Sequence record: PP180004
From: Escherichia phage mEp044
Strand: one strand, 5' to 3'
DNA: 54,557 bases
A program made the translations under genes and the position numbers. Below the pieces are notes generated by a model. It ran no database searches, had not been told where the DNA came from, and worked only from the letters and a program-made list of their open reading frames with translations. Every line of letters begins with the position of its first letter. Positions within the stretch are counted from its first letter, which is position 1. Below are positions 3,887-51,407 of the stretch, in pieces.

Positions 3887-5302
3887 TTAAAAAGATGCGT
3901 TATTCTGATTGTTTCGTTGGTTAAAACGGCTTGTGCGATGATTCATTGACTGAATGCACGCTGCGGCTGCGCGCGCCTGGTCGCATGGCAAGATATTACC
4001 GTTGTCATCAAACCGCTGGTAAACAGTTCCAGACTTACCATGACGGTTTTTTGACACAATGATTTCCATGTATTCGCGGGCAACAGACTGCTCGTCGTAA
4101 TACCCATCGCGGTAAACCATGATTATTCTGTCGGCATCTTGCTCAAGGTTGCCGGAATCGCGCAGATCAGAATTATTCGGGCGCTTGTTCGGTCGTTCCT
4201 CAACGCGGCGGGACAACTGCGCCAGCGCTAACACTGGAACGCGCAATTCTTTTGCCATCATCTTCAACGACCATGACAATTGCCCTACAGCGAGATCATG
4301 ACGTTCGGCCTTAGCCAGCTTCATTAACCCGATATAGTCAATCATTACCATACCCAGGTTCGGGTGATCCTGCTTCATGCGTTCCGTTGTTGCGCGTATT
4401 TCCTCAACCGTTAACTGCGACGCGTCAACGATCCACACATCAAGGTTAGCAAGTGCGCTCATACCCTGGCCGACATGCGCCCACCCTTCATCATCAAGTT
4501 TTACCGGATTGCGCAGGCAGTCAGTTGATAAATTACCAGCGCCAGCGATAGCGCGCTCAGTCATCTGATCGAGTGACATTTCAAGCGTGAAGAACAAAAC
4601 GCCAACCCGCTGATCCTTGCTGCCAGGGTAAGGGCGTTCAGCAGCAGAGCGGGCAATTGCCAGCGCAAACGCAGATTTACCAGACCCAGGGCGTCCGGCG
4701 AGAAGCACCAGATCAGTAGCGTTAATGCCGCCTAACATTTCGTCGAGTGGTTCTATCCCTGTTTTAATGTTGTCAGAATTGACACCGCATTCCATGCGCT
4801 TACTTAAAACTTCTGTGTACTCCTGGACAGCATCGCGCAACAGAACAGGGATAATCTTGTCTTTCGTTACCTTTAATTTTGAATAACGGGAATCAAAATC
4901 TTTCATCGTCTCTTTGACGACCTCAAGCGTCCCCGTCTCCAGTTTGTAGCGCATATCGTCGATGAGTTCCAACATCTGCCGCCGCTGGTACTCTTCACGT
5001 AGTAGCTGTGCGTATCCCTTCAGGTTGGCAGCAGACGGGCACGATCTCGCCGTTTGCATTAGCGGTACGAAATTTTCATTACCAATCTCATCACCTACCA
5101 GCAATGCATCGATGAGATTCCTGTTTCTGGCTTGCGCCCGGATAATTTCAAAAGCCCTCTTATACAGCGGAATAGTGAACACTTCAGGATCAAGCGTGGC
5201 GAGAACATCTTGCGCGTTAGGAGTTAGGCCGCCCAACAGCAGCCCACCGATAACTGACGCCTCACGTTCCTGCCGTAGTGAGTTTATTTGCTCAGTTACC
5301 AT
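3887..5302 (-). CDS. replicative DNA helicase, DnaB family
   Basis: 471 aa; DnaB N-terminal EREASVIGGLLLGG; Walker A GRPGSGKSAFAL; RecA-like core. Confidence 0.9.
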   Translation of the reverse strand: MVTEQINSLRQEREASVIGGLLLGGLTPNAQDVLATLDPEVFTIPLYKRAFEIIRAQARNRNLIDALLVGDEIGNENFVPLMQTARSCPSAANLKGYAQLLREEYQRRQMLELIDDMRYKLETGTLEVVKETMKDFDSRYSKLKVTKDKIIPVLLRDAVQEYTEVLSKRMECGVNSDNIKTGIEPLDEMLGGINATDLVLLAGRPGSGKSAFALAIARSAAERPYPGSKDQRVGVLFFTLEMSLDQMTERAIAGAGNLSTDCLRNPVKLDDEGWAHVGQGMSALANLDVWIVDASQLTVEEIRATTERMKQDHPNLGMVMIDYIGLMKLAKAERHDLAVGQLSWSLKMMAKELRVPVLALAQLSRRVEERPNKRPNNSDLRDSGNLEQDADRIIMVYRDGYYDEQSVAREYMEIIVSKNRHGKSGTVYQRFDDNGNILPCDQARAAAACIQSMNHRTSRFNQRNNQNNASF

Positions 5303-5320: not shown

Positions 5321-6463
5321 TTACAAAATGGAAAATTCAGGGTAATAAACAAAGCGCCCGATCTCCCCATGATCCGGGCTGTAAATAATCACCGCTGCCA
5401 GACGCCGCGACCTCCAACCTCCATTAGTCGAATATGCATCTTTGCCCGCTAACGTGCCGTGATACTCAACAACGCCTAACGATGATTCAATCAGCCTTTG
5501 ATGATGCCAGTGCCCGCAATGAGCGTAAACCGCAGACGACTTGCCAAAGTCTTCCCGCCAGTCAGCTACGCAAGCAGACAATAAATTTTCCGGCTTTTTG
5601 ATAGTGTGCCCGTGGTGGTAAGCAAGGAATGTTTTCCCGTACTGCGTGTGGTGGACGATAGTAGGTGACACATCAACCGTCACGCGCGGTTCATCTTCGT
5701 AAAAAGCCGCCAGCGCCGCACGTAGCCAAATCATACCAGACTGGTCATGATTCCCTGATAACACCTGGATTTCCACATCCTTATGATTTAGCAACATCTT
5801 TCCTACCGCACGCCGGACAGACCGGATCGCCACATAAACAAGTTTTGCGTAGCGCGAATCGCAATCAAGAACGTGATTACTTGATGGCGTCACTGGTAAC
5901 AATCCGTCAGTGTGAAGCAGGTCGCCACCGAGAAGCAAGACCGCTTTTTCACTCATAGGAGCAGCGCCAACAGCATAATCAAAGAAGTTATTTAGCACGC
6001 GTTCAGCGATCCCAGTGTCGTAGCTCTCGCCGCATTCAGCTTTATGAGCAAGCGCGCCGATATGCAGATCAAATACCGGATAAAGGGCAAGGCTTTTTTG
6101 AAAATCAATTTCAGGCACTGGCACGGCATCCGCGCGTGGTATTTCCTCCGTGAATGCGTCGCGGGCAGCTTCCATTAGCCTTTCCATTTCATCGCGGTCA
6201 CGGGCTGTTTTAATCCAGCGCATGACCGTATTCCCAGCCTTATCGACAAGAACAGATTCACCAGTAACGCCAAAACCCGGCGCGCGGCGCGTTGATAATA
6301 AACCGCGTTTCGCCAGCTTTGCGCCCAGGCGCTCGACGTTGCGTTTTGACATGCCAAATTTTTCGGCGATCTGTTTATACGTTAAACCGTTGTTATATTC
6401 AGCGATCAATTGCTCATCGCTGATTTTTCTTTGCGACATAATGTTAATTCCTCCAGTTAACAA
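5321..6463 (-). CDS. N-terminal HTH fused to calcineurin-like metallophosphoesterase
   Basis: 380 aa; HTH LTYKQIAEKFGMSKRNVERL; phosphoesterase motifs DLHIG, GGDLLH, GNHDQ, HHGH, GHWHH. Confidence 0.7.
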   Translation of the reverse strand: MLTGGINIMSQRKISDEQLIAEYNNGLTYKQIAEKFGMSKRNVERLGAKLAKRGLLSTRRAPGFGVTGESVLVDKAGNTVMRWIKTARDRDEMERLMEAARDAFTEEIPRADAVPVPEIDFQKSLALYPVFDLHIGALAHKAECGESYDTGIAERVLNNFFDYAVGAAPMSEKAVLLLGGDLLHTDGLLPVTPSSNHVLDCDSRYAKLVYVAIRSVRRAVGKMLLNHKDVEIQVLSGNHDQSGMIWLRAALAAFYEDEPRVTVDVSPTIVHHTQYGKTFLAYHHGHTIKKPENLLSACVADWREDFGKSSAVYAHCGHWHHQRLIESSLGVVEYHGTLAGKDAYSTNGGWRSRRLAAVIIYSPDHGEIGRFVYYPEFSIL

Positions 6464-6472
6464 AATGTATAC

Positions 6473-7183
6473 CTACTTACACGCAAAAAGTTCAGATACC
6501 CAAAGCTGACCTTTAGCAGTAAATAGTGATTGCACGTAACCTTCAGGCGAACATTTTACCACTCCATAGCCTTTGTCTACGAACCACTGTTTAAACATCC
6601 GCCCACCGCGCTTAATTCGCGTATCGTACACGTCAACCTGTTCGAGTTTTTTGTTGAGTTGCGTAGCAGTCATACCCAAAGGCTTGGCAACCTGCGTTGC
6701 GTTGCGATGCTGTTCGTTTCTTACAATCGCATCACAGACAGCCGCTTTTGGCGCTAATTCCTTGTTTTCCAGCGCCAGCCGTTCAGCTTCCTTCTGTGCT
6801 AATAGTTTTTGCTCTACCTCATCCGCCCATGCGCGAGCCGCAACAACTGGGTCAGTGAAATCCGGCAAAGCTGGTTTGCGCACCTGTTTTTCAAGCTCCT
6901 GCCAGCGGTCAACAAGTCGCGCCGTAAATTTAGGACAGTTTTGAGCAACAACGATAATGCTGTCACGCTTGCCTTGTTCGCCTTCAAAAATATAGACATT
7001 AACAAACCTGTTAGGACTAAGTGATTGTTTATTCTCAACTTTCCCCATTGGGGGTAGTTTAATTACCCCTCTCTGTGCCATTCGTTCTATAGACTGTTTT
7101 ACTTTATCGTGACGATTGCCTAGTAGTTCCGCAATTTCAAAACTATTCATCCTAACACCATCAAAAACCATTAAATCACTCAT
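6473..7183 (-). CDS. Rha-family regulator with KilA-C/Ant C-terminal domain (antirepressor-like)
   Basis: 236 aa; N-terminal Rha-like EIAELLGNRHDKV; C-terminal KilAC-like region. Confidence 0.7.
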   Translation of the reverse strand: MSDLMVFDGVRMNSFEIAELLGNRHDKVKQSIERMAQRGVIKLPPMGKVENKQSLSPNRFVNVYIFEGEQGKRDSIIVVAQNCPKFTARLVDRWQELEKQVRKPALPDFTDPVVAARAWADEVEQKLLAQKEAERLALENKELAPKAAVCDAIVRNEQHRNATQVAKPLGMTATQLNKKLEQVDVYDTRIKRGGRMFKQWFVDKGYGVVKCSPEGYVQSLFTAKGQLWVSELFACK

Positions 7184-7215
7184 TGTATATACTCCGGTTT
7201 ACGTAATGTATTTGC

Positions 7216-7827
7216 TTAAACGATAATGCGCACAAACTTACAGCCCAACACTGCGCTTATTTCTTTTTCACGAATACGATCTGCTTCCGTATGCTGCGGT
7301 GTGAAATGTTGCTCCTCATCTATTTCATAGGCGATATTGTTTACAGGATCGTAGCCATCTATTCTGTATTTTCCTAGCACTGGATACTGCCTTATTAATT
7401 TAACTCCCTGTAATTGTTCTATGGTGGTTAATGCTGTTTTCTCTCTGATTCCGTTATTTCTGATTTTTTCACTTACGACGGATAAAGATGATATTGTTTC
7501 GCATAAATCATTGTATTCACTGAATTTATTACAAACTTCTTCTTTGAACCAATGTAAAAAGCGATAGTTTTTAGATTTCAATACAATATTGCATAAGTCA
7601 CATAACAACATAAGCGTTACGCCTTGTGGCTTGGGCTTAAAACCAATATTAAGCATTTCACCGTATTTGATTTTAATCAATGACTTACAGTGTCTTTTGA
7701 TTGCGCTTTGTGGTTTTATGTATCCAAGCGCCCGCGCCACATCCATTGCAACAAAAGCAGGTTTACCATCATAAATTACAGCAGTGATTTGGTTGTTATC
7801 GAAATTAAAACTCATCAACTCAGACAT
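7216..7827 (-). CDS. Bro-N domain protein fused to a Vsr/DUF559-like PD-(D/E)xK nuclease-like domain
   Basis: ORF 7216-7887 with likely start MSELMSFNF at 7827; C-terminal YRIDGYDP..IAYEIDEEQH..D.IRE...LGCKFVRI. Confidence 0.55.
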   Translation of the reverse strand: MSELMSFNFDNNQITAVIYDGKPAFVAMDVARALGYIKPQSAIKRHCKSLIKIKYGEMLNIGFKPKPQGVTLMLLCDLCNIVLKSKNYRFLHWFKEEVCNKFSEYNDLCETISSLSVVSEKIRNNGIREKTALTTIEQLQGVKLIRQYPVLGKYRIDGYDPVNNIAYEIDEEQHFTPQHTEADRIREKEISAVLGCKFVRIIV

Positions 7828-8194
7828 TGTAATTTCTCCGTAAAACGCTCTACAACGCAAAAATCCCACCGCGTAACACGTTTGCACATGTTGCAGTGTC
7901 TTATTGCGTCATAGGAGCAATCAGGTGGCTAATTTTTGATTTACAGACTGGTAGGTATGTTATGGATTGACTAGAAGGAATAAACCGCCGAACAAGGCGA
8001 CGTTAACAGCGATTGCCGCAGAGATGGCAAAAGCTAGGGCGAAAACGTGTTTACCGTCCATTTAAAAATCCCCTCTAAAACGCTATCTAACGAGCTAATA
8101 GCAAAAAGGTATGCAAGTGTAGCACCCAATGCAATTTAGCTCGCTGGTGAGCTTGCTGGGTTGGTTATTTTTGGTTTTTGTGTATCGTGGTTGG

Positions 8195-9187
8195 TCAAAG
8201 AGCGCCAGCGCGTGTATCACGTAGCGTTTTTGGTTTAAGCAGGAAATCAAGTGTCGCAGTGAAGCCATCGCCGAAGTAAAAATCTGAAGCCTTGTTTTTG
8301 AATGCTTCGAAGTAGGCGATAAATCCGTTAATGCTTTTGTCTTTCAGGTAGTCAGTGAACGCATAGATCTTGCGTTCAAGATCCCGATCAAGTTCGGCAG
8401 GTGGCAACAGGCCATCAAACGTGATGTTAAATTCTTCCACCACGTCGGCAGCGTTTGCAGTAGCTGATAGCTTTCGCCATTGTTCAGCATCAGCCAGATA
8501 CCCATCAAACTTAGTTGCCCGGCAAATGTTAACAGGCTTAGGTGTTCCACCACGGCTACGCCATTGCGTTAAAGCCCACTCAATCACTAATGTGATCTCA
8601 TCCTCAGTATACGCTTTACGTGTTTTTGTTTCTGTCAGTAGTTCGATGAACGGTTTTGCATCACGACATTTGCATCCTGCCTTGTCGTTGTAAAAGGCCA
8701 GGCAACGCAATGCAGCCAGATTAACCTCCCGATCTTCTTCGCTGATAGACTCGTCTTTTTCCAATACACGAAGTGTATTGTTTTTAATGTTCTCTTTACT
8801 GGTTATATATGACTGGTTAGGGTGACTCTGTGTCACTACCCCCGGTGACTCTGTGTCACTACCCTGGTGACTCTGTGTCACTACCCCCGGTGTCACAGTG
8901 ACACTACCATGTAATGACGGGAGGACTATTACATAGAAATTACTAGTTTGCTCTTTTCCTCCGATTAAGTATCTTGGTTGTTTAATCAACAACCCTTTTT
9001 CACAAAGTGAGTCTACAGCCCTCATAGCTGTTCTTTTACTGATCTCACACTCCTTTGCTATGTGATGGTAAGAAGGGTAACACTCGCCGTTATCATTAGC
9101 GTTGTCAGCTAACTTTAACAGCACAAGTTTGTGCATTGGGTCGCCGACCTCAGTATGGAAGACCTCTACCATTAGCCGCATACTCAT
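8195..9187 (-). CDS. replication initiator with N-terminal HTH domain (lambda O-like role); contains the ori iterons
   Basis: 330 aa; N-terminal HTH; internal iteron array as in lambda O. Confidence 0.7.
   Translation of the reverse strand: MSMRLMVEVFHTEVGDPMHKLVLLKLADNANDNGECYPSYHHIAKECEISKRTAMRAVDSLCEKGLLIKQPRYLIGGKEQTSNFYVIVLPSLHGSVTVTPGVVTQSHQGSDTESPGVVTQSHPNQSYITSKENIKNNTLRVLEKDESISEEDREVNLAALRCLAFYNDKAGCKCRDAKPFIELLTETKTRKAYTEDEITLVIEWALTQWRSRGGTPKPVNICRATKFDGYLADAEQWRKLSATANAADVVEEFNITFDGLLPPAELDRDLERKIYAFTDYLKDKSINGFIAYFEAFKNKASDFYFGDGFTATLDFLLKPKTLRDTRAGAL
8821..8908. repeat. origin iterons: three direct copies of about 20 bp (ggtgactctgtgtcactacc) followed by an inverted variant, then an AT-rich stretch (8909-8950)
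   Basis: read directly; lies inside the initiator gene (encodes the VTQSH peptide repeats). Confidence 0.7.
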
Positions 9188-9207
9188 AAATATGGCCTCC
9201 TGATAAA

Positions 9208-9453
9208 CTAAAACATTAACTTATAAACACAGAAGAAGCCCGGCAGCTGGCTAATCAGGCCGCTTCTTTTCAGTTGATGCAGCGCAGATATAGTGTCACG
9301 TAACGAAATTTCGCACATTTCCGCGATCTCTTCTGGCGTTACTTCGCTTTTGCCGTTGCATCCGGCCTTTGTTGCCAGTGCAATTAAGATGAGTTTTTGC
9401 GCCGGATCATTGTTATTCAGGCGAATATCAAAAGCCTTGCGCACGTAATACAT
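9208..9453 (-). CDS. small HTH DNA-binding protein, first gene of the minus-strand early operon (Cro/CII position)
   Basis: ORF 9208-9495 trimmed to ATG 9453 preceded by AGGAGA; HTH similar to the initiator N-terminus. Confidence 0.55.
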   Translation of the reverse strand: MYYVRKAFDIRLNNNDPAQKLILIALATKAGCNGKSEVTPEEIAEMCEISLRDTISALHQLKRSGLISQLPGFFCVYKLMF

Positions 9454-9561
9454 ATTCTTTTCTCCTATGGTTAGAGTGAACGCGCGGGCGGGCATCCCAT
9501 TAGCATTAGATAGCAGTGACTGACCGCTGAACAGATCCCGCCGTTGCGTGATATTTGTTTT

Positions 9562-9595
9562 TCGCTTCGCAGCGACACCGGATTTTTAAAGAGCT
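9562..9595 (-). promoter_or_regulatory. candidate nutR-like site: boxA-like GCTCTTTAAAAAT plus hairpin TCGCT-GCGA-AGCGA on the minus strand
   Basis: boxA-like match and adjacent short stem-loop in the leader of the minus-strand operon. Confidence 0.4.
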
Positions 9596-9633
9596 TTAAG
9601 GTATGTGCCTTTTGTGCTTTCCCTTATCTTTTT

Positions 9634-9735
9634 CCTTGCATCATTGCAACTATGGCCTTACCTTGTCTGTAAGTTTACAGAATGGCGTTAACAGATCAAG
9701 GATTGAAAATTACATTTTGTGACTTGCATCAAAAT
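9634..9735. promoter_or_regulatory. immunity-region operator/promoter zone: repeated TTGCATCA half-sites (9636-9649 as TTGCA-N4-TGCAA; 9726-9733), palindrome CTGTAA-GT-TTACAG (9666-9679)
   Basis: repeats read in the 305-bp divergent region between the Cro-position gene and cI. Confidence 0.4.
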
Positions 9736-9758
9736 TTTTTCGGTTATAGGGTAGCGAT

Positions 9759-10406
9759 ATGAAAACAAAATGGTATGACTTAGCAAAACAACTCATGCGG
9801 GCGCAGGGCATGAGCCAGGATTCATTGGCTGATCTTATGGGGATAACCAAAGGCGGCCTTTCTCACTGGTTGAACGGTCGCCGTGAGCCGAATCTTGAAG
9901 ATATTGCGCGGATCATGCGGGCGCTTGGGCGTCGGCAGTTCACTGTCACACATGATGGAATGGTCATTGATGATTCTGTTTCTAACACGTTGCCGGGAGC
10001 GCCACCGCGTGATTTAGGCAGTTACCCGGTTGTTGACTGGAAGGATGTAGTAAACAATATGGAAGATGCAAGGCGATCAACATTACCACACGTTACGACT
10101 AGCGTTATTTGTTCAGATGATAGTTATTGGCTGGTAGCTAAAGGCGAATCAATGAACGCGCCGCAAGGGTTAAGCATCCCGGCGGGTACTATGATACTTG
10201 TTGACCCGCACGCGCCAGCTATTGACGGCAAGCTCGTTATAGCCCAACTGGAGGAAGGGCAGACGCCTACGTTTAAACAGTTGATTATTGATGGAGGCCG
10301 AAAACTTTTGCGTTCACTTAATCCGTTGTATCCGCCGATCCCTATGAATCCAGAATCAAAAATCATTGGCGTGGTTGTTGATGCGAAGATCGTAAACCTG
10401 CCATAA
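9759..10406 (+). CDS. cI: CI-type repressor (HTH plus LexA-like S24 peptidase domain)
   Basis: 215 aa; N-terminal HTH; C-terminal AKGESM ... K motifs of S24 autopeptidases. Confidence 0.9.
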   Translation: MKTKWYDLAKQLMRAQGMSQDSLADLMGITKGGLSHWLNGRREPNLEDIARIMRALGRRQFTVTHDGMVIDDSVSNTLPGAPPRDLGSYPVVDWKDVVNNMEDARRSTLPHVTTSVICSDDSYWLVAKGESMNAPQGLSIPAGTMILVDPHAPAIDGKLVIAQLEEGQTPTFKQLIIDGGRKLLRSLNPLYPPIPMNPESKIIGVVVDAKIVNLP

Positions 10407-10692: not shown

Positions 10693-10983
10693 ATGACAGT
10701 TACAATCATGTATGGCAAATGTGACAGTAAACTGAATGCCAGGGAACGCAGAAGAATAAAAAGAGAAAACGAAAGAAAATCATCACCTGCAATCAATAAA
10801 ACGGACAATGTGGATAAAGCCATTCGCTTTGCAAACGAGGAGAGATGCAAACCCAATGGCATTAAAGAACGTCGCAAAGGAGCAGTAAAATGGTATACGG
10901 AAAATGAAAGCGGCAACTACTACCACGCAACGCAACCACGCCAGTTAGGGGAAAAACCCCTTGATAAAGTCCGCTATCATTAA
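10693..10983 (+). CDS. N-like antitermination protein candidate (arginine-rich motif NARERRRIKRENERK)
   Basis: 96 aa, first gene after the early promoter and nut-like site; ARM resembles lambda/P22 N. Confidence 0.5.
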   Translation: MTVTIMYGKCDSKLNARERRRIKRENERKSSPAINKTDNVDKAIRFANEERCKPNGIKERRKGAVKWYTENESGNYYHATQPRQLGEKPLDKVRYH

Positions 10984-11136: not shown

Positions 11137-11774
11137 AAACAGAGTTACACAAAAAATTATGGACGATTCAACAAACGTTGAACGCGCCGAAAAATCAGCG
11201 TAATAATTTCGGTGGTTACAATTACAGGTCGGCGGAGGATATTTTAGAGGCGGTTAAGCCACTGCTTCAAAATATAACGCTGACTGTTAGCGATGAAATC
11301 GTCCTGATCGGCAATCGCTATTATGTGAAAGCAACTGCTACACTAAGCGACGGTGAAGATGAAATTGCGGTAACTGCTTACGCCAGGGAAGAAGAAAGCA
11401 AGAAGGGAATGGACGCAAGCCAGTTAACTGGCGCGACATCAAGTTATGCGCGTAAATACGCGTTGAACGGATTGTTCTGTATTGATGATGCGCGAGATCC
11501 TGATACTGACGCATACGCAAAGCAGACAGGCCAGCAGCCTCGCCAACAGAAAAACCCACCAAAACAACAACCACAGCAGCAGAAAGCGCCGCCAAATCCT
11601 GACGAGGTGTTAGCGCGTTTCTGTGATGCAGCAGCGAAAGCGCCTGACGCTAACAAGCTGCGCGAGATATTCGGGAAGTGCTGGAAGCTACTTCCTAAAG
11701 ATTCAGAACAGCAACAGAAAGCTAAAGATGTTTATGACATTCGCTTGAAAGAGCTTAACGGGGAGATCGGTTAA
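11133..11774 (+). CDS. erf: Erf-family single-strand annealing protein
   Basis: 213 aa; YRSAEDILEAVKPLL and TSSYARKYALNGLF motifs of Erf. Confidence 0.8.
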   Translation: MKTELHKKLWTIQQTLNAPKNQRNNFGGYNYRSAEDILEAVKPLLQNITLTVSDEIVLIGNRYYVKATATLSDGEDEIAVTAYAREEESKKGMDASQLTGATSSYARKYALNGLFCIDDARDPDTDAYAKQTGQQPRQQKNPPKQQPQQQKAPPNPDEVLARFCDAAAKAPDANKLREIFGKCWKLLPKDSEQQQKAKDVYDIRLKELNGEIG

Positions 11775-12193
11775 TGAGCTTAAATTTAATCACACTTGGC
11801 GGTAATATCGGGAATGATATGGAAGTTCGCTACACACAAAACGGGAAAGCGATTGGTAGTTTTCCGTTAGCTGTAACGAATGGCTACGGTGATAATAAAC
11901 GGACAATGTGGATAACTTGCCTGGTATTTGGCGAGCGTGCGGAAAAATTAGCGCCACATATCCGCAAGGGCGGGAAAATAGTGGTAAGCGGTCGCCTGGA
12001 CGTTCGGCAATATGACCGGAACGACGGCACGAAGGGAACTGCGGTGGAAGTGGCGGTCAATGAGTTCGAATTTTGCAGCAGGAACGATCAGCAACCACAG
12101 CAACAGCCACAGCAACAGCAACAGCAACAGCAGAATTATAGCGGTGGATATAAAGAGCCGCCAATGGATTTTGATGATTCGATCCCGTTTTAA
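11774..12193 (+). CDS. ssb: single-stranded DNA-binding protein
   Basis: 139 aa; OB-fold N-terminus, Q/P-rich linker, acidic tip DFDDSIPF. Confidence 0.85.
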   Translation: MSLNLITLGGNIGNDMEVRYTQNGKAIGSFPLAVTNGYGDNKRTMWITCLVFGERAEKLAPHIRKGGKIVVSGRLDVRQYDRNDGTKGTAVEVAVNEFEFCSRNDQQPQQQPQQQQQQQQNYSGGYKEPPMDFDDSIPF

Positions 12194-32304: not shown

Positions 32305-33578
32305 AAACCGTGAATAAAGAACTGATTCAGGTTAATACCAAATTAACCGCTAATACCATACGCCGGGAAACGTATAACGGGCGTGAGCACATTGTAGTCC
32401 CGTCGTATACGTTGCCCTTCAATATCGTTATGAATCGGGAATATTACCCGGAAGCTGAAATCATTGCTAATTATCAATCTCTGGAAGGTACGCTCGCACC
32501 GCTGGGCCATCCTACGGTTGACGGCGAATTTGTTTCCGCATTTAGCCCGGAAGGACTAAATATTGGCTTTTGTGGTGCATGGAACAGAAATGTTGAATTG
32601 CGCGGGAACCGTGTTTATGTGGAAAAGTGGGTGGATGTTGAAACCGCCAGCCATTCAGAACAGGGCCGCGAATTATTAAGCCGACTGGAAGCACTGGAAA
32701 AAGGCGAAAGCAAGGATCCGATCTGGTCATCCGTAGCCGTATATCGTCAGCGTATGCCAGCTACCGAAGAAATGAAAGCCCAGGGTGCTGACAGCGTTGT
32801 CAAAATTATGTCGATTGACCATGACGCTATCTTATTGCATGAACCGCCAGCTGCATCGCCAGAACAGGGCGTTGGCCTGATGGTTAACACTGACCAGGCC
32901 AAGCCGTTAATGGCGTTGGCAATGAAAGAAAACAGCTATCGCACGCTTGAAAGACAATTGGAAGAAGCTGCGCGTGAACTGTTCCCCGATGCAGATTATG
33001 TCTATGTGGTGGACTTCACTGATAAAGAAGTAACGATTGCCACTAATACCGAAAGTGCTCAAGTTTGCACATATGAAAAACAGGCTGATAAAATTATTCT
33101 CAATAATGGCGAGCTTGCAACCAATGAGGAAAGTAAATCCTGGTTCGCTCAGTTCGCTGAACACTTATCTAATCTTTTCTCCCTGAATGAAAAAATTAAG
33201 GCCAATAAATCGGAGGACGATCCCATGCCTTTGACCAAAGAAGAACGCGCCGAACTGGTAAAAGAAATTAACGAAGGTTTATCCGCTAATATCGCCAGTG
33301 CAGTAGCTGAAGCACTTAAACCAGTACAGGCAAGCGTAGAAGAATTACAGACCAATCAGAAAGCGATTAAAGAAGAGATCGCAGCAAACGCAGATAAAGA
33401 AGTAGCAGAAAAACGCGCCGCAGTAGCAAAAGTGCACGGCGAAATTGTTGCTAACGCTTTAAGTGGTGAAGCGTTAGAAGCAATGTTTAAATCCCTGGGC
33501 AAAGCCGCGCCGATGGCAACCAACGCAGCAAGCGAAGGTAAAAAAGGCGAAGTACCAGACTTTAACACTTATTTCTAA
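32295..33578 (+). CDS. putative scaffolding protein; TTG or GTG start
   Basis: 427 aa; Ala/Glu-rich helical C-terminal half; precedes the capsid genes. Confidence 0.45.
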   Translation: MGVKTVNKELIQVNTKLTANTIRRETYNGREHIVVPSYTLPFNIVMNREYYPEAEIIANYQSLEGTLAPLGHPTVDGEFVSAFSPEGLNIGFCGAWNRNVELRGNRVYVEKWVDVETASHSEQGRELLSRLEALEKGESKDPIWSSVAVYRQRMPATEEMKAQGADSVVKIMSIDHDAILLHEPPAASPEQGVGLMVNTDQAKPLMALAMKENSYRTLERQLEEAARELFPDADYVYVVDFTDKEVTIATNTESAQVCTYEKQADKIILNNGELATNEESKSWFAQFAEHLSNLFSLNEKIKANKSEDDPMPLTKEERAELVKEINEGLSANIASAVAEALKPVQASVEELQTNQKAIKEEIAANADKEVAEKRAAVAKVHGEIVANALSGEALEAMFKSLGKAAPMATNAASEGKKGEVPDFNTYF

Positions 33579-45920: not shown

Positions 45921-48900
45921 ATGAGTAGCGGCGGCGGCAAAGCCAAAACACCAACATTATTAAACGATAACCTGTATCATAAACAGTTTTATCGTGTTTT
46001 AGACATTCTCAGCGAGGGGCCGATATACGGCCCGGCAAACCAGAATGCGCCATTAAACAACGTAATGCTTAATGACACGCCTATCACTGACGCAAACGGA
46101 AACACATCAATTCCTGGGATTAGTATAGCCTGGCGAAACGGCACGGCTGACCAATCGCCGATTAATGGTTTTAATGCCATCGAATCAACCGTTATTGTCA
46201 ACGCAAAGGTAACTCACGACACACCAATAATAAGGACTGTTTCAGATCCAAACGTTACCCGCGTAAGGTTAAATCTTGGCGTTGATGCTCTTGTTCAGTC
46301 AGATGATGAGGGCAATCAATATAATACATCCGTTATGTTGATGGTTGATGTTAAACCGTCAACATCTTCTACGTGGTCGCTGGTTAAAGATATACACATT
46401 GGTCCCGGTAAACAAAGCGGCGAATATCTGGAAGCTCACATTATCAAAGCGCCGGATGAAAAGCCGTTTGATATTCGCGTTCGTCGCGCAACGGCAGACA
46501 GCAAAAGCGATCTTCTTCGTAATGATACGCGGTGGAGTAGCTACAGCGAAATAATCGACGATAATTTATCTTATCCTCATACCGCTGTTGCTGGCGCGGT
46601 AATTGACCATGACCAGTATACTGATACTCCTACCCGTACATATCACCTGCGCGGGCTGATTGTTGATGTTCCTGATAACTACGACCCGGAAACGCGCACG
46701 TACTCAGGTTTATGGCTTGGTGGCTTTAAAAAAGCGTATACCAATAACCCTGCATGGCTTTTCCGGTATCTGGTGAAAAATGAACGCTTCGGGCTTGCCC
46801 GCCACGCTGGTTACGTTGATGTTGACGACGGAGCATTATATACGCTTTCTCAATACTGCGACCAGTTGGTAAACGACGGTTACGGCGGCTTTGAACCACG
46901 CATGACGCTTAATGCTTACATCACGGAGCAAATGAGCGCACGAGACTTGCTGGATAACATTGCAGGTATGTTCCGTGGTATCGCGTTATGGGACGGGCAA
47001 CGCCTTACTGTGATGATTGATGCGCCACAGGATCCAATTGCCACCATTACAAATGCAAACGTCGTTGATGGCGCGTTTACTCGTTCAAGTATCGCCCGTG
47101 CAGAATCTTACAACGCCGTGATTGTGTCATGGACTGACCCGGAAAACGGTTGGGAGCAATCAAAAGAATACGTGGCAGATGATGAACTGATCGCCCGCGA
47201 TGGTTATAACGAAACCACTTTAGAGGCGTTCGGTTGTACGTCACGCGGGCAGGCGTACCGCGCTGGCAAGTGGCTGATAGAAACAGCAAAACGCGAACCA
47301 TCAAAATTCACGTTTAAAATGGCCCGTGACGCAATTCACTTCACCCCGGGTGATATTATCGAGATACTCGACAATAACCGCGCAGGCGCTCGTTTAGGCG
47401 GTCGTATCGTGGCTAATAATGGCAAGGTGATAACGGTCGATAAGGTTGATTCTGAATATATCGCGGCTGGTGACACTATCAGTTTGCTTGATAGTGATGG
47501 CAAGTTTAAAAAACACCAGATCACCGGAGTTAACGGAAACAACATCACCCTTGCAACCGCCCCCGCATGGATTCGTAACGGGACCGTATTCGCTGTGTCA
47601 ACTGAAGCGGCAAGACCTGTTCTGTGTCGAATTATCAGCGTAGCGGAAACCGAAAATAACAGCGTGTACACCATCGAGGCTGCACAGCATGATCCGCACA
47701 AGCAGGCAGTAGTTGATGAAGGTGCAATCTTCGAGGTAAACAACGACACGCTTAATCACTTCCGCGTGCCGAACATTGAAAACCTGAAGGTGTTAAATGT
47801 TGGTTCTGAAACTGTTCAATGTCGCGCTACATGGGAAACACATACGACAACGCATCGCCTGACCTTTGAGATCCGCGTATATAATGCAGACGGTCGCGTG
47901 GTGGCAAGTTATGAAACAACGAATTACCGTTATGAATTTTATGGCCTCGAAGCAGGCAGCTACACGCTTGGTATTCGCGGTCGTAATGACACTGGCATGA
48001 AGGGCGCTGAAAGTATTGTGGATCTGGTGATTGGTGCACCATTGGCCCCTGTCGGCGTTAATTGGGTTCCGGGCGTTTTCCAGGCAACAGTATACCCGAT
48101 CAGCAAAACAACCCTGACCACTGATACGGCATATGAGTTCTACTTCTCAGGTGAAAACCAGATCACAGATCCATCAAAAGTAACCACGCTGGCGCAGTTC
48201 ACCGGGCGCGGCTACCAATGGACTTTTGGCGGCATGAACACGGGTCATACCTATTACGTTTATGTGCGCACGCGTAATGCCTTTGGTGTGTCAGACTTCG
48301 TTGAAGCATCAGGCGAACCGACTGAAAACTTCGATGAAATCAGCGACTACGTCACAAAAGACGTGATTAATTCAGAACAGTTTAAGGGGATGATTAGCGA
48401 CATTAAAGATCTTGGCGACCGCGCCGACCTTATCGAAAGCGCTACAAATGACCTTAAAACTGCTACCGACAACCTCAAAACTGCAACTGATAACCTGACA
48501 AACATCACTGACGATTTGAGGGTTGACACGGACAACCTGACAAACATCACTGACGAATTGAGGACTGATACGGACGGCCTAATCACAGAAACAGGGGCCA
48601 TAAAAGCTGATACGGACACACTGAAAAAAGAGACGGAAGATCTTTATAAAAAGGTTGGGGAAAACGCCGATGATATTGGACAGCATGAGGCAAGAATAGA
48701 TTCGCTGGAGGTATCTAGCGAAAAAGTTGGCAGTGAACTAGCACAAGCAAAAGCAAGCCTGCAAAATGCGTCATTGGCGCTTATCAATAACTCACTTGCA
48801 CAGACTAACACGCGCGTAACTCTTACCGCCCAATACAAGAAAGGTAGGACAGAGACGAGGGCTGAAATTGACCGCATTGACAACGTTATTGCTGAAGAGA

Positions 48901-51407
48901 AAAAGGCAACGGCGGAATCACTGGAAACCATCACGGCAGAAATGAACACGATGGATTCTAACCTTAAAGGTCAGATCTCAAGCGTGGAACGTGCAGTGGC
49001 TGACGAGGCCAGCGCACGCGCAGAAGCCATTAACGGTGTGAACGCATCAATAAGCAATCTAGACAAGAAAACAGACGCCAGCATCAATAGACTTGATCAA
49101 GCTATTGCAGACGAAACGACCGCCCGCACACAGGCAGTCAGTGACGTTAACGCGAGTATCTCATCGCTAGACAAGAAAACTGGCGCCAGCGTGAAACGCT
49201 TGGATCAAGCGATTGCAGACGAAACCAGCGCAAGAACTGAAGCTATCAGCGGAGTGAACGCATCAATTTCCACGCTTGATAGCAAGGTAACAAGCAATGT
49301 AACGCGCATAGATAAAGCTATTGCAGACGAAACGAAGGCACGCACTGACGCAATCAGCGGCGTTAATGCAAGTATTAGCACACTCGAAGGCAACACCAAT
49401 TCAGAAGTGAAACGCCTTGATCAAGCAATAGCTGACGAGACTAGTGCCCGCACACAGGCTATCAGCGGTGTAAATGCTTCAATAAGCAATCTTGAAAGCA
49501 AAACCGACGCCAGCGTTTCCCGTCTTGATAAAGCAATAGCAGATGAAACGCAGGCAAGAAGTGCTGCAATAACAGATGTTAAAGCTGATTTAACAACACT
49601 CGAAAACAGCACAAACGCCAGCGTCAAACGTCTTGATCAGGCAATTGCCGACGAATCAAGTGCCCGCGCTGAAGCAATATCAGGCATCAATGCAGAGATT
49701 GGCAACATTGAAAATAATGTTGACAAAAACAGCGATGATATAAATCAGACAAAAGCAAGCCTGCAAAACGCGTCTATCGCGCTTATTAACAACTCAATCG
49801 CTCAAACAAACACGCGTGTTACGCTTACGGCCCAATACAAGAAAGGCCGCAAAGAAACCAACGCGCAAATTGACCGTATTGACAATGTTATCGCTGAAGA
49901 GAAAAAGGCTACAGCGGAAGCGGTTAGCGTGGTAAAAGCATCGATCACGGATCTTGATAAGAAGACTGACGCGAGCGTTTCCCGTCTCGACAAGGCTATC
50001 GCAGACGAAACAAGCGCACGCAGCGAGGCTATTAGCGGAGTAAATGCCTCAGTGTCAGCGCTAGACAAGAAAACGGATTCAAACATAAGCCGTCTTGATA
50101 AAGCCATTGCAGATGAGACAAGCGCAAGAACTGAAGCTATCAGTGGAGTGAATGCAAGTATTATCACTCTTGAAAGCAACACTGAATCTGAAGTTAGCAG
50201 GCTGGATCAGGCAATTGCCGACGAATCAAGTGCCCGCACCCAGGCTATAAGCGGAGTGAACGCATCAATTTCCACGCTTGATAGTAAGGTGACAAGTAAC
50301 GTAACCCGTATTGACAAGGCAATTGCAGACGAAACGAACGCCCGCACTGACGCGATAAGTAGCCTTAATTCATCGCTTACCAGTACGATTAACTCGAAGG
50401 TGTCTGAGGTATCAACGGCGCTTTCTACGCATGAAGCATCAAGCGCAGAAAAATTTAGCCAGATCTCAGCGTCTTTCGATTCTGTAAATTCAAGTATTAC
50501 AGAATGGTCGCAGGCTATGGCAACGGCTGACGAGGCATTATCAAGCAAAATTGATCAGCTAACAGTAACCGTTAACGGGAACACGACAGCAATAGAGACA
50601 ACATCGAATGCGCTAACCGATTTCAAGGGTAACGTTGATGCGTCATATTCCATCAAGCTGGCAACAGATAACAACGGCATGAAGTACGCTACAGGTATGT
50701 CGCTTGGCCTGACTGGTAACGGCACAAACTTTCAATCGCAGTGTATTTTCCTTGTTGACCGCTTCGTATTAATGACCGCAGCAAACGGCACATATACAAC
50801 GCCTTTCTATGTATCTAATGGCGCTATGTATGTGAAAGAAGCGTTTATTAAAAACGCATCAATAGGAGAAGCTAAAATTGCAAACGCCGCAATCACATCA
50901 GCCAAAATTGCACAGCAGATACAGTCAACTGAATTTGTTAAAGACTCAAAAGGTTGGATGATTAACAAAGATGGGTGGGCGGAGTTCAATAGCGTTACGG
51001 TGAGGGGGACTGTGTATGCTACGGACGGTAAGTTCTCCGGTTCGCTTGAGGCGAAAACCTTTATCGGTGATGTTGCGAATATGTATACAGGAGGTGACGT
51101 TAGTAGATTAAATGATGGTGTGCTAGAAAAAACAATCACATACAACGATACATCAAGTGCAGCACATAGTAGACACATCTGCGTTATGGCAAACGTCAAA
51201 GGTTTTGGTGGCTGCACGATAAACATTGGAGGTTCAGAAAAAAACCTTGCTATGAATGGAGATGAGCGTCTTGTCATGCATTCAGCGGCAATAACTACCA
51301 AGAGCGTTACAGTTAAAATTAAGGTATCCGCTCAAAATAGCAAGGGTGCATATATAAATTCGCCGACCGTCATTGTGTCGCGCGGTTCTGGTTCATTCTC
51401 AGGATAA
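45921..51407 (+). CDS. J: tail tip/host specificity protein J with an internal coiled-coil repeat expansion
   Basis: 1828 aa; N-terminal ~1000 aa resemble lambda gpJ (ISEGPIYGP, WSSYSEIID, FGCTSRGQAYRAGKWLIETAK); repeats at about aa 930-1500. Confidence 0.9.
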   Translation: MSSGGGKAKTPTLLNDNLYHKQFYRVLDILSEGPIYGPANQNAPLNNVMLNDTPITDANGNTSIPGISIAWRNGTADQSPINGFNAIESTVIVNAKVTHDTPIIRTVSDPNVTRVRLNLGVDALVQSDDEGNQYNTSVMLMVDVKPSTSSTWSLVKDIHIGPGKQSGEYLEAHIIKAPDEKPFDIRVRRATADSKSDLLRNDTRWSSYSEIIDDNLSYPHTAVAGAVIDHDQYTDTPTRTYHLRGLIVDVPDNYDPETRTYSGLWLGGFKKAYTNNPAWLFRYLVKNERFGLARHAGYVDVDDGALYTLSQYCDQLVNDGYGGFEPRMTLNAYITEQMSARDLLDNIAGMFRGIALWDGQRLTVMIDAPQDPIATITNANVVDGAFTRSSIARAESYNAVIVSWTDPENGWEQSKEYVADDELIARDGYNETTLEAFGCTSRGQAYRAGKWLIETAKREPSKFTFKMARDAIHFTPGDIIEILDNNRAGARLGGRIVANNGKVITVDKVDSEYIAAGDTISLLDSDGKFKKHQITGVNGNNITLATAPAWIRNGTVFAVSTEAARPVLCRIISVAETENNSVYTIEAAQHDPHKQAVVDEGAIFEVNNDTLNHFRVPNIENLKVLNVGSETVQCRATWETHTTTHRLTFEIRVYNADGRVVASYETTNYRYEFYGLEAGSYTLGIRGRNDTGMKGAESIVDLVIGAPLAPVGVNWVPGVFQATVYPISKTTLTTDTAYEFYFSGENQITDPSKVTTLAQFTGRGYQWTFGGMNTGHTYYVYVRTRNAFGVSDFVEASGEPTENFDEISDYVTKDVINSEQFKGMISDIKDLGDRADLIESATNDLKTATDNLKTATDNLTNITDDLRVDTDNLTNITDELRTDTDGLITETGAIKADTDTLKKETEDLYKKVGENADDIGQHEARIDSLEVSSEKVGSELAQAKASLQNASLALINNSLAQTNTRVTLTAQYKKGRTETRAEIDRIDNVIAEEKKATAESLETITAEMNTMDSNLKGQISSVERAVADEASARAEAINGVNASISNLDKKTDASINRLDQAIADETTARTQAVSDVNASISSLDKKTGASVKRLDQAIADETSARTEAISGVNASISTLDSKVTSNVTRIDKAIADETKARTDAISGVNASISTLEGNTNSEVKRLDQAIADETSARTQAISGVNASISNLESKTDASVSRLDKAIADETQARSAAITDVKADLTTLENSTNASVKRLDQAIADESSARAEAISGINAEIGNIENNVDKNSDDINQTKASLQNASIALINNSIAQTNTRVTLTAQYKKGRKETNAQIDRIDNVIAEEKKATAEAVSVVKASITDLDKKTDASVSRLDKAIADETSARSEAISGVNASVSALDKKTDSNISRLDKAIADETSARTEAISGVNASIITLESNTESEVSRLDQAIADESSARTQAISGVNASISTLDSKVTSNVTRIDKAIADETNARTDAISSLNSSLTSTINSKVSEVSTALSTHEASSAEKFSQISASFDSVNSSITEWSQAMATADEALSSKIDQLTVTVNGNTTAIETTSNALTDFKGNVDASYSIKLATDNNGMKYATGMSLGLTGNGTNFQSQCIFLVDRFVLMTAANGTYTTPFYVSNGAMYVKEAFIKNASIGEAKIANAAITSAKIAQQIQSTEFVKDSKGWMINKDGWAEFNSVTVRGTVYATDGKFSGSLEAKTFIGDVANMYTGGDVSRLNDGVLEKTITYNDTSSAAHSRHICVMANVKGFGGCTINIGGSEKNLAMNGDERLVMHSAAITTKSVTVKIKVSAQNSKGAYINSPTVIVSRGSGSFSG
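48741..50400 (+). repeat. in-frame coding tandem repeats inside J: about eleven 108-bp (36-aa) units in two blocks, each block headed by a ~180-bp duplicated segment (48741 and 49750)
   Basis: repeated peptide LDQAIADETSARTEAISGVNASIS...; attgcagacgaaac recurs every 108-109 bp. Confidence 0.8.

What the first reader, a model, noticed from the sequence alone, without database searches (positions are those of the whole stretch)
8821..8950. Origin iterons embedded in the replication initiator gene
Three direct 20-22 bp iterons plus an inverted copy, followed by an AT-rich stretch, lie inside the initiator coding sequence and encode the repeated peptide PGVVTQSH. This mirrors the lambda ori inside gene O, with the initiator N-terminal HTH domain presumably binding its own iterons.
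Basis: partly seen in the sequence, partly recalled or inferred. Interest (0 to 1): 0.35.

Follow-up and report, generated by a model that had tools for sequence, protein, structure and literature searches.

The report
Phage replication origin inside initiator gene
Four 22-23 bp repeats inside this temperate coliphage's replication-initiator gene are very probably the initiator's binding sites at the phage origin, the lambda/P22 layout seen here in a phage group whose origin had not been described.

Summary
Window 8821-8908 carries four tandem units: three exact 20-mers, GGTGACTCTGTGTCACTACC, and one variant, spaced 23/22/23 bp. None is expected by chance. They lie in the linker-coding part of a 330-aa initiator gene (8195-9187, minus strand).

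Two corrections:
- The "inverted copy" is a fourth direct iteron (16/20 direct identity versus 6/20 inverted).
- The most AT-rich, least stable DNA lies on the other flank (8771-8810), gene-downstream as in lambda.

The window is a mEpimmI-group coliphage, about 90% identical to mEp010. Evidence for a lambda/P22-type origin:
- Identical 20-mers sit in two codon phases.
- All copies in a genome change together, in step with the recognition helix (three specificity groups).
- Phages with an unrelated N-domain carry unrelated iterons at the same place.
- Iteron number varies as 2, 4 or 6.
- The initiator's C-terminus is homologous to P22 gp18.
- The phage's DnaB-type helicase is 57% identical to P22 gp12.

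The N-domain is HTH_36, not the lambda-O Pfam family. No replication or binding was tested. This is a new member of a known kind, of modest interest.

The parts
8195..9187 (-). rep, the replication initiator gene (330 aa). It has an N-terminal winged helix, an iteron-encoded linker and a C-terminal domain. An AGGAGG ribosome-binding site lies 8 nt upstream of the ATG.
   Evidence: ORF list. Pfam HTH_36, 3.9e-15. PHROG replication initiation and O-like families. Annotated as replication protein or protein O in mEp021 and mEp010. Ribosome-binding site read from the sequence.
8987..9139 (-). Codons 17-67: the HTH_36 winged-helix DNA-binding domain. The recognition helix is ...EISKRTAMRAVDSLCEKG...
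   Evidence: Pfam match to aa 17-67. Helix variants track iteron variants in 117 of 120 cluster representatives.
8821..8843 (+). Iteron 1 in + strand order (gene-distal, next to the main AT-rich tract): GGTGACTCTGTGTCACTACC plus a CCC spacer. Codon phase 2, read as GVVTQSH.
8844..8865 (+). Iteron 2: the identical 20-mer plus a CT spacer. Codon phase 0, read as GSDTES.
8866..8888 (+). Iteron 3: the identical 20-mer plus a CCC spacer. Codon phase 2, read as GVVTQSH.
8889..8910 (+). Iteron 4: the variant GGTGTCACAGTGACACTACC, a direct copy with T:T half-sites rather than an inverted copy. Codon phase 0, read as GSVTVT.
8771..8820 (.). Main AT-rich tract and candidate DNA-unwinding element, gene-downstream of the iterons as in lambda. 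It contains two ACTGGTTA copies 14 bp apart.
   Evidence: 75% AT. Least stable 30- and 40-mers of the gene, top 0.2% of the window. TACTGGTTATATATGACTGRTTAG is conserved in all 10 type A loci.
8762..8780 (.). Inverted repeat with 8-bp arms, CAATACAC-GAA-GTGTATTG, beyond the AT-rich tract. Its position matches the palindrome I recall to the right of the lambda AT-rich tract.
   Evidence: Present in most type A loci and in most, not all, type B linker variants.
8911..8986 (.). Second, milder AT-rich flank on the gene-upstream side.
   Evidence: 65-68% AT. The 60-mer 8927-8986 is in the top 0.4% of the window for instability.
8198..8455 (-). Codons 245-330: C-terminal tail homologous to the C-terminus of P22 gp18. 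It is the presumed helicase-recruiting part.
   Evidence: BLASTP 37% identity, E 7e-14. tblastn hits to gene 18 of P22-like phages, next to the gene 12 helicase.
3887..5302 (-). Phage-encoded DnaB-type replicative helicase, the presumed partner of Rep.
   Evidence: Pfam DnaB_C 5.7e-76 and DnaB N-domain. 57% identity to P22 gp12.
8717..9457 (.). Origin-specificity cassette exchanged as a block between type A and type B relatives. [quoted passage not shown]
   Evidence: blastn breakpoints against MagusPhagus and mEp515. Protein alignments.

Best explanation
Window 8821-8910 is the iteron array of the phage's origin of replication. It lies in the part of the initiator gene rep (8195-9187, minus strand) that encodes a flexible linker between two domains.

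Proposed mechanism:
1. Rep is translated from the early transcript that crosses the origin.
2. Its N-terminal winged-helix domain, probably as a dimer, binds each imperfect palindrome GGTG[A/T]C-N5-G[T/A]CACT plus its ACC tail.
3. Four sites spaced 22-23 bp (about two helical turns) assemble a lambda 'O-some'-like nucleoprotein complex.
4. That complex strains and melts a flanking AT-rich tract. The most likely tract is 8771-8820, gene-downstream as in lambda; the alternative is 8911-8986.
5. Rep's C-terminal domain, whose last ~90 aa resemble P22 gp18, recruits the phage's own DnaB-type helicase (3887-5302) onto the melted DNA. No lambda-P-type loader is recognisable. Host primase and polymerase then take over.

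Shown by sequence analysis: the repeats, their placement, the homologies and the co-variation. Inferred: binding, melting, helicase recruitment and origin activity.
For: 1. The repeats are far beyond chance and unique in the 54.5-kb window.

2. The constraint is on DNA, not on the peptide. The identical 20-mer sits in codon phases 2, 0 and 2 and is translated as GVVTQSH or GSDTES. In type B relatives an 11-bp unit recurs four times, and by my reading it therefore falls in all three codon phases.

3. Concerted change and co-variation.
- In 10 type A loci all copies in a genome share one variant: GGTGAC..GTCACT, GGTGTC..GACACT or GGTTGC..GCCACT. Spacing is always 23/22/23.
- Among 120 cluster representatives, 117 were scored. 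Every recognition-helix variant paired with its own class of iteron-encoded peptide: SKRTAMRAVDS with VV[T/S]QSH, [S/G]KSTAMRA[V/I]DA with VVSERH, and NKSTAMRAIEA with VVAESN. A few carry single substitutions. One unscored sequence, P0070, is hybrid in both helix and peptide.
- Position 5 of the two half-sites is the same base (A:A, T:T or G:G) in 37 of 42 iterons, as expected for a symmetric dimer.

4. Module swap. MagusPhagus, mEp515 and most IMG/VR relatives keep the same C-domain. They replace the N-domain with Lin1244_N and the iterons with 4 x GGTCATGA at an 11-bp period. A divergent Lin1244_N subgroup has CCATGGCACAA repeats.

5. Iteron number varies only in pairs: the linker is 15, 30 or 45 aa, meaning 2, 4 or 6 iterons. 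Stx phages show the same 4-versus-6 pattern (PMC7466680).

6. Shared layout with reference origins. Lambda and P22 each have 4 iterons spaced 20/24/23 bp inside O or gene 18, and both are annotated in the records.

7. Homology. The Rep C-tail matches P22 gp18 at E 7e-14, and the helicase is 57% identical to P22 gp12.

8. A relative with the same layout. The Stenotrophomonas phage BUCT709 Rep is 43% identical over its full length, has its own iterons at the same place, and is followed directly by a helicase.

9. Both flanks are among the least stable DNA in the window.

10. Generality. 69 of 92 diverse N-domain homologues carry peptide repeats of period 7, 8, 15, 22 or 23 aa right after the wHTH domain.
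Against: - There is no experimental evidence of binding, unwinding or origin activity for this phage group. The group's description paper does not mention an origin or iterons.
- The helix-iteron association could partly reflect tight physical linkage (<300 bp) and shared ancestry rather than selection.
- Group 1 Rep evidently tolerates A or T at the 'specificity' position: there are mixed A:T iterons, and iteron 4 is T:T.
- Rep's N-domain is not in the lambda-O Pfam family.
- Which flank melts cannot be decided from sequence.
- No structural model of usable quality was obtained.
Confidence: 0.85

Rival explanations
1. The repeats are Rep-binding sites used mainly to regulate Rep, by autorepression, a transcription roadblock or titration of the initiator. 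The true origin would lie elsewhere.
For: The sites lie inside rep's own transcription unit, so bound Rep could impede transcription. Lambda iterons on plasmids can titrate O and inhibit replication (PMC3349717). None of my computations separates regulation from initiation.
Against: - The layout of iterons, adjacent AT-rich tract and palindrome in the middle of the initiator gene is the lambda/P22 origin layout.
- No other iteron-like array exists in the window.
- Regulation and origin function are not exclusive.
Confidence: 0.07
2. The repeats are bound by another protein rather than by Rep's N-domain. Candidates are the small wHTH paralogue encoded just upstream (9208-9453) or a host factor.
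For: The small gene is a paralogue of the Rep N-domain (37% identity, E 3e-10). It is swapped together with the iterons between type A and type B phages.
Against: - The small protein is 96-99% identical across the three iteron specificity groups, while Rep's recognition helix changes with them.
- It is absent from L009, L028 and L042, which keep normal iterons.
- It varies 60-100% among type B phages that share the same iterons.
- There is no DnaA-box enrichment at the site.
Confidence: 0.04
3. The repeats are only a coding repeat, a repetitive peptide linker that arose by slippage, with no function as DNA.
For: They encode a repeated peptide, and the linker length varies among relatives.
Against: - The identical DNA is read in two codon phases and gives two different peptides.
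- The repeat unit of 22/23 bp is not a multiple of 3.
- Each unit has dyad symmetry that is maintained through three base states.
- Unrelated N-domains come with unrelated repeats at the same place.
Confidence: 0.02

Closest known systems
Salmonella phage P22 origin inside gene 18, working with the gene 12 DnaB-type helicase
   Same: - Four iterons about 20 bp long, spaced 20-24 bp, inside the initiator gene. The record annotates rep_origin 32840-32984 within gene 18.
- The initiator C-terminus is homologous: 37% identity, E 7e-14.
- The phage-encoded helicase is 57% identical.
- Both sit in an early operon divergent from the repressor gene, and a NinB gene is also present in the window.
   Different: - P22 gp18's N-domain is Pfam Phage_rep_O (PF04492), whereas this Rep has HTH_36.
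- The iteron sequences are unrelated.
- Here the helicase is separated from rep by about 2.9 kb of accessory genes: two antirepressor-like genes and an exonuclease-like gene.
Phage lambda ori inside gene O, and its Stx-phage variants 933W and P27
   Same: - Four iterons, each an imperfect inverted repeat, lie in the middle of the initiator gene with an adjacent AT-rich tract on the gene-downstream side (PMC7466680; PMC3349717).
- The type-specific N-half travels with its iterons, while the C-half is exchangeable.
- Iteron number differs by two between relatives, adding residues to a tolerant part of the protein.
   Different: - There is no sequence similarity to lambda O (BLASTP not significant; no PF04492 hit).
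- No lambda-P-type loader is present. The phage brings its own DnaB-type helicase.
- The iterons are more uniform: three are identical.
HTH_36-type 'O' or replication proteins of ST64B, Min27 and Stx2a_WGPS2-type lambdoid phages, and Stenotrophomonas phage BUCT709
   Same: - The N-domain is 47-56% identical, and 43% over the full length for BUCT709.
- All are Pfam HTH_36.
- All have 21-24 bp direct repeats immediately after the wHTH-coding region.
- ST64B's repeat, written in gene sense as TAGTGCAGGAGTTGCACCAGG, resembles this phage's GGTAGTGACACAGAGTCACC. This is my own reading.
   Different: - As far as I could find, these origins are annotated only by similarity and have not been tested.
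- ST64B and Min27 have different C-terminal parts and different downstream partners.
Iteron-regulated plasmid origins (pSC101, R6K, RK2, P1 class)
   Same: Direct repeats about 20 bp long, spaced about two helical turns apart, are bound by a winged-helix initiator next to an AT-rich unwinding element. This rests on established knowledge and was not tested here.
   Different: As I recall, plasmid iterons lie outside the rep coding sequence. Their Rep proteins belong to other families: no Rep_3-type Pfam hit was found here even at E <= 10.

Membership tests
Lambdoid-type origin embedded in the initiator gene (ori-lambda / P22 ori class) | An array of at least 3-4 direct repeats of about 18-20 bp, spaced 20-24 bp, inside the initiator ORF | tested here: met
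   Four units spaced 23/22/23 bp inside rep. Lambda and P22 measured with the same tool give 20/24/23.
Lambdoid-type origin embedded in the initiator gene (ori-lambda / P22 ori class) | Each iteron is an imperfect inverted repeat | tested here: met
   Half-sites are GGTGAC/AGTGAC (5 of 6 positions). The symmetric base is kept through the A:A, T:T and G:G variants in 37 of 42 iterons.
Lambdoid-type origin embedded in the initiator gene (ori-lambda / P22 ori class) | An AT-rich tract adjacent to the iterons, on the gene-downstream side | tested here: met
   8771-8810 is 75% AT, the least stable 40-mer of the gene and in the top 0.2% of the window. Unwinding itself was not tested.
Lambdoid-type origin embedded in the initiator gene (ori-lambda / P22 ori class) | The initiator's N-terminal domain binds the iterons specifically | not testable with these tools
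   Indirect support only: helix-iteron co-variation and the domain-plus-iteron swap.
Lambdoid-type origin embedded in the initiator gene (ori-lambda / P22 ori class) | The fragment supports initiator-dependent replication | not testable with these tools
   This needs a plasmid origin assay or marker-frequency analysis.
Lambda O protein family (Pfam PF04492 Phage_rep_O) | The N-terminal domain matches PF04492 | tested here: not met
   No hit even at E <= 10. Lambda O and P22 gp18 score 5.7e-36 and 6.9e-38 in the same scan. BLASTP against lambda O is not significant.
HTH_36 winged-helix phage initiators (Pfam PF13730) | The N-terminal domain matches PF13730 above the gathering score | tested here: met
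   55.8 bits against a cut-off of 25, E 3.9e-15, aa 17-67. Homologues in ST64B, Min27 and BUCT709 also match.
P22 gp18-type C-terminal (helicase-partner) domain | Significant similarity to the gp18 C-terminus, together with a gp12-type helicase in the same genome | tested here: met
   E 7e-14 over aa 245-330. The helicase is 57% identical to gp12. Physical interaction was not tested.
Plasmid iteron initiators (Rep_3 / RepA-pi type) | Matches a plasmid Rep family profile | tested here: not met
   No such Pfam or NCBIfam hit.

The most novel reading that the evidence does not exclude
The origin is part of a ~740-bp exchangeable 'origin-specificity cassette' (8717-9457). Besides the initiator's DNA-binding domain and its iterons, the cassette carries a free-standing paralogue of that domain (9208-9453).

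This small protein could modulate initiation in an origin-specific way. It might work as an anti-initiator or accessory factor that heterodimerises with Rep, or it might bind the second repeat motif in the AT-rich flank (ACTGGTTA x2 in type A; TTCTAATT repeats in type B).

The three natural iteron/recognition-helix classes, which differ mainly at one symmetric base pair, might also be mutually orthogonal replicons. They could have been selected in phages that all share one immunity type.
Probability: 0.1. Interest if true: 0.5.

Novelty: new member of a known kind. Interest (0 to 1): 0.25.

Why it matters
- It gives the mEpimmI coliphages, a prevalent gut phage group described in 2025 without any origin, a precise and testable origin with a P22-like replication module.
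- The 'iterons in the linker of the initiator gene' design appears to extend across a large family of HTH_36 initiators that is not lambda O by sequence.
- The three natural iteron/recognition-helix classes and the alternative Lin1244_N cassette form a ready-made series for dissecting origin specificity or building orthogonal replicons.
- It does not change what is known about how such origins work.

Tried and rejected
- Single-sequence AlphaFold2 of Rep gave mean pLDDT 36.6, which is unusable, so no fold search was run.
- A PDB sequence search gave only spurious haemagglutinin hits at E of about 0.7-0.9.
- NCBIfam returned nothing above its cut-offs.
- Rfam at gathering threshold found no RNA family anywhere in the window, so there is no support for a structured RNA explanation.
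- DnaA boxes are not enriched: 5 found against 6.8 expected, with only a relaxed match at 8996.
- The promoter scan of 8000-10000 was not above shuffles, so there is no evidence for an internal promoter at the repeats.
- An inverted repeat, ATGTAAT-N12-ATTACAT at 8908-8933, is degraded in relatives and was dropped.
- I judged GC-skew analysis uninformative for a phage with divergent early operons and did not run it.
- The literature held no description of an origin or iterons for mEp021 or the mEpimmI phages.

Full report
**What is in the sequence**

Window 8821-8910 holds four head-to-tail units.
- GGTGACTCTGTGTCACTACC occurs exactly at 8821, 8844 and 8866. The variant GGTGTCACAGTGACACTACC is at 8889.
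- No match to the 20-mer, even with three mismatches, occurs elsewhere in the 54,557-bp window or in 100 shuffles of it.
- Tandem Repeats Finder reports 8821-8908, period 23, 3.9 copies.
- Start-to-start spacing is 23/22/23 bp.
- The fourth unit is a direct copy. By my count it matches the others at 16/20 positions in direct register and 6/20 when reverse-complemented. The same variant is a regular iteron in relatives.

**The gene**

The array lies inside ORF 8195-9187 on the minus strand (330 aa), which has a strong AGGAGG ribosome-binding site.
- Residues 17-67 match Pfam HTH_36 at 3.9e-15, with weaker MarR and DnaD_N winged-helix matches.
- PHROG matches are to 'replication initiation protein' and 'replication initiation O-like' families.
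- The iterons occupy codons 94-123, between the winged helix and the C-terminal domain. PGVVTQSH occurs twice.
- The protein is not in lambda O's family. There is no PF04492 hit even at E <= 10, although lambda O and P22 gp18 score about 1e-36 in the same scan. BLASTP against lambda O is not significant.
- The last ~90 residues are homologous to the C-terminus of P22 gp18 (37% identity, E 7e-14).

**Genomic context**

The window is a temperate coliphage of the mEpimmI group, about 90% identical over 90% of its first 25 kb to mEp010. Other relatives are mEp021, mEp554, mEp013, mEp515 and MagusPhagus.
- rep is the second gene of the early operon that diverges from a cI-like LexA-type repressor gene at 9759-10406.
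- Downstream of rep on the same strand lie two antirepressor-like genes, an HTH-plus-exonuclease-like gene, and a DnaB-type helicase at 3887-5302 (Pfam DnaB_C 5.7e-76). The helicase is 57% identical to P22 gp12.
- A NinB gene and an integrase follow.
- The replication module is therefore P22-like (initiator plus own helicase) rather than lambda-like (O plus P).

**Why the repeats act as DNA and not as a peptide repeat**

The unit length of 22/23 bp is not a multiple of three. The identical 20-mer therefore falls in codon phases 2, 0 and 2, and is read as GVVTQSH or as GSDTES. Keeping the nucleotides identical across two reading frames cannot be explained by selection on the peptide.

**Comparative evidence**

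I collected the six deposited relatives and 44 IMG/VR loci that encode the same C-terminal domain. Ten of these loci (type A, the window included) have the HTH_36 N-domain.

Type A loci fall into three classes. All have four iterons spaced 23/22/23 bp, except one locus with six. In every genome all copies carry the same variant.

| Class | Members | Iteron half-sites |
|---|---|---|
| Group 1 | window, mEp010, mEp013, two IMG/VR loci | GGTGAC-N5-GTCACT |
| Group 2 | mEp554, two IMG/VR loci | GGTGTC-N5-GACACT |
| Group 3 | mEp021, one IMG/VR locus | GGTTGC-N5-GCCACT |

- The variable base is mirrored in the two half-sites (A:A, T:T or G:G) in 37 of 42 iterons. This is what a symmetric dimeric reader would impose.
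- Group 1 tolerates A or T at this position. It has five mixed A:T iterons, and its fourth iteron is always T:T.
- Among 120 cluster representatives of the protein, 117 could be scored. Each recognition-helix variant pairs with its own class of iteron-encoded peptide. SKRTAMRAVDS goes with VV[T/S]QSH, [S/G]KSTAMRA[V/I]DA with VVSERH, and NKSTAMRAIEA with VVAESN. A few carry single substitutions. One unscored sequence, P0070, is hybrid in both helix and peptide.
- Linker length is 15, 30 or 45 aa, meaning 2, 4 or 6 iterons. They always change in pairs, because only 45 bp preserves the reading frame. Stx phages differ from lambda in the same way, with six iterons against four (PMC7466680).

Caveat: helix and iterons lie less than 300 bp apart. 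Linkage and shared descent therefore contribute to the association. The within-genome homogenisation and the half-site symmetry are the stronger arguments.

**The module swap**

MagusPhagus, mEp515 and most IMG/VR loci keep the same C-domain (>90% identity) but differ upstream of it.
- Their N-domain is an unrelated Lin1244_N domain (Pfam 6.8e-11).
- At the same place they carry four copies of GGTCATGA at an 11-bp period. By my reading, an 11-bp unit repeated four times falls in all three codon phases.
- A divergent Lin1244_N subgroup (L042, L046) has CCATGGCACAA repeats instead.
- blastn places the exchanged block at window 8717-9457.

Specificity domain and repeats thus travel together while the C-domain is shared. 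From established knowledge, this is the classic lambdoid pattern of a type-specific O N-half plus ori joined to an exchangeable C-half.

**Comparison with reference origins**

- The same repeat finder gives four iterons spaced 20/24/23 bp for both lambda O and P22 gene 18. They coincide with the iterons and rep_origin annotated in those records.
- The array starts at codon 94 of 330 here and, by my calculation, at about codon 117 of 299 in lambda.
- The Stenotrophomonas phage BUCT709 Rep is 43% identical over its full length. It has its own 21-24 bp repeats at the same place and is followed directly by a helicase.
- The N-domain is 47-56% identical to the 'O' or replication proteins of ST64B, Min27 and Stx2a_WGPS2, which also carry 21-24 bp repeats right after the winged helix.
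- In a search of 1.84 billion cluster representatives, 5,975 proteins matched at E <= 0.001. Of 92 diverse N-domain homologues among the best 150, 69 have short peptide repeats of period 7, 8, 15, 22 or 23 aa immediately after the winged helix.

The design therefore appears general for this initiator family.

**Flanks**

- The window is 54% AT overall. The low-coordinate, gene-downstream flank reaches 75% AT at 8770-8809 and holds the least stable 30- and 40-mers of the gene (8781-8810 and 8771-8810), in the top 0.2% of the window.
Its best 60-mer, 8927-8986, is in the top 0.4%.
- By analogy with lambda, whose AT-rich tract lies downstream of iteron 4 (PMC3349717), I favour 8771-8820 as the unwinding element. 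Sequence alone cannot decide this.
- Beyond that tract lies an inverted repeat with 8-bp arms, CAATACAC-GAA-GTGTATTG, at 8762-8780. It is present in most type A loci and in most, not all, type B linker variants. From memory, lambda has a palindrome in the equivalent position.
- There is no DnaA-box enrichment and no Rfam family in the window.

**The small upstream gene**

Gene 9208-9453 (-) encodes an 81-aa paralogue of Rep's N-domain (37% identity, E 3e-10).
- It is swapped together with the cassette.
- It is 96-99% conserved across the three iteron classes.
- It is absent from L009, L028 and L042, which have normal iterons.
- It varies 60-100% among type B phages that share the same iterons.

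It is therefore not the iteron reader. Its role is open.

**Known or new**

The paper that defines the mEpimmI group does not mention an origin or iterons. The principle is textbook lambda/P22 biology and has been tested experimentally for lambda and Stx phages (PMC7466680, PMC3349717). This is a new member of a known kind.

It differs from the reference cases in three respects:
- The N-domain is HTH_36 rather than Phage_rep_O.
- That domain is fused to a P22-gp18-type tail.
- A clean natural series of specificity variants exists.

Binding, melting, helicase recruitment and origin activity remain inferences.

**What failed**

- Single-sequence AlphaFold2 gave pLDDT 36.6.
- The PDB sequence search and NCBIfam gave nothing useful.
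- The promoter scan found nothing above shuffles.

Noticed in passing
window 9208-9453 (-): An 81-aa free-standing winged-helix protein, paralogous to the Rep N-domain (37% identity). It is exchanged together with the origin cassette between type A and type B phages, is invariant across iteron classes, and is missing in L009, L028 and L042. MagusPhagus annotates its counterpart as 'replication initiation protein'. Its role is unknown.
   Followed up: partly
window 8762-8780: The hairpin CAATACAC-GAA-GTGTATTG followed by TTTTTAATGT on the + strand scores as an intrinsic-terminator-like site antisense to rep. It is found in both cassette types. It could be an origin palindrome or could stop antisense transcription before the iterons.
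   Followed up: partly
window 8798-8819 and ten other sites: The 8-mer ACTGRTTA occurs 12 times in the window against 2.8 expected (none of 100 shuffles reaches 12). Two copies lie 14 bp apart in the AT-rich flank next to the iterons and are conserved in all type A loci. Type B cassettes instead have TTCTAATT-type repeats on both sides of their iterons.
   Followed up: partly
window 5321-7887 (-): A variable accessory slot lies between rep and the helicase.
- 7216-7887 is a Bro-N antirepressor-like gene.
- 6473-7183 is a Rha/ANT antirepressor-like gene.
- mEp021 carries a zinc-ribbon gene and an HNH endonuclease in this slot instead.
- 5321-6463, an N-terminal HTH plus PHROG 704 'DNA repair exonuclease', is conserved next to the helicase in all relatives.
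   Followed up: no
L047, and proteins P0001, P0038, P0077 and others: Natural iteron copy-number polymorphism. The linkers are 15, 30 or 45 aa (2, 4 or 6 iterons), always changing in pairs. L047 has six perfectly alternating iterons.
   Followed up: yes
protein P0070 (ENA contig, 17 kb): A Rep whose recognition helix and iteron-encoded peptides are both mosaics of groups 1 and 3 (…SKRTAMRAIEELCKKGLLL… with VVAESH and VVTESH). It may be a recombinant or an assembly chimera.
   Followed up: no
L042 and L046 (IMG/VR): A divergent Lin1244_N initiator subgroup has a third repeat type (CCATGGCACAA at an 11-bp period, peptide PWHNH), followed by a long GAA-rich acidic tract.
   Followed up: partly
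L004 (mEp013) rep, aa ~150-245: The middle of the C-terminal domain is replaced by a version that looks only about 45% identical by eye, while the N-domain, the iterons and the last 90 aa stay conserved. This is a second recombination module inside rep.
   Followed up: no
window 10809-10817 and 11907-11915 (-): Two perfect DnaA-box consensus sequences (TTATCCACA) lie in the leftward early region, near a small ORF at 10693-10983 and inside the SSB gene. Neither is near the origin.
   Followed up: no
window 12097-12132 and 48451-49261: Coding tandem repeats. (ACAGCA)6 gives a poly-Q tail in the SSB gene (11774-12193). Repeats of 21, 42 and 108 bp lie in what is probably the tail-fibre region.
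   Followed up: no
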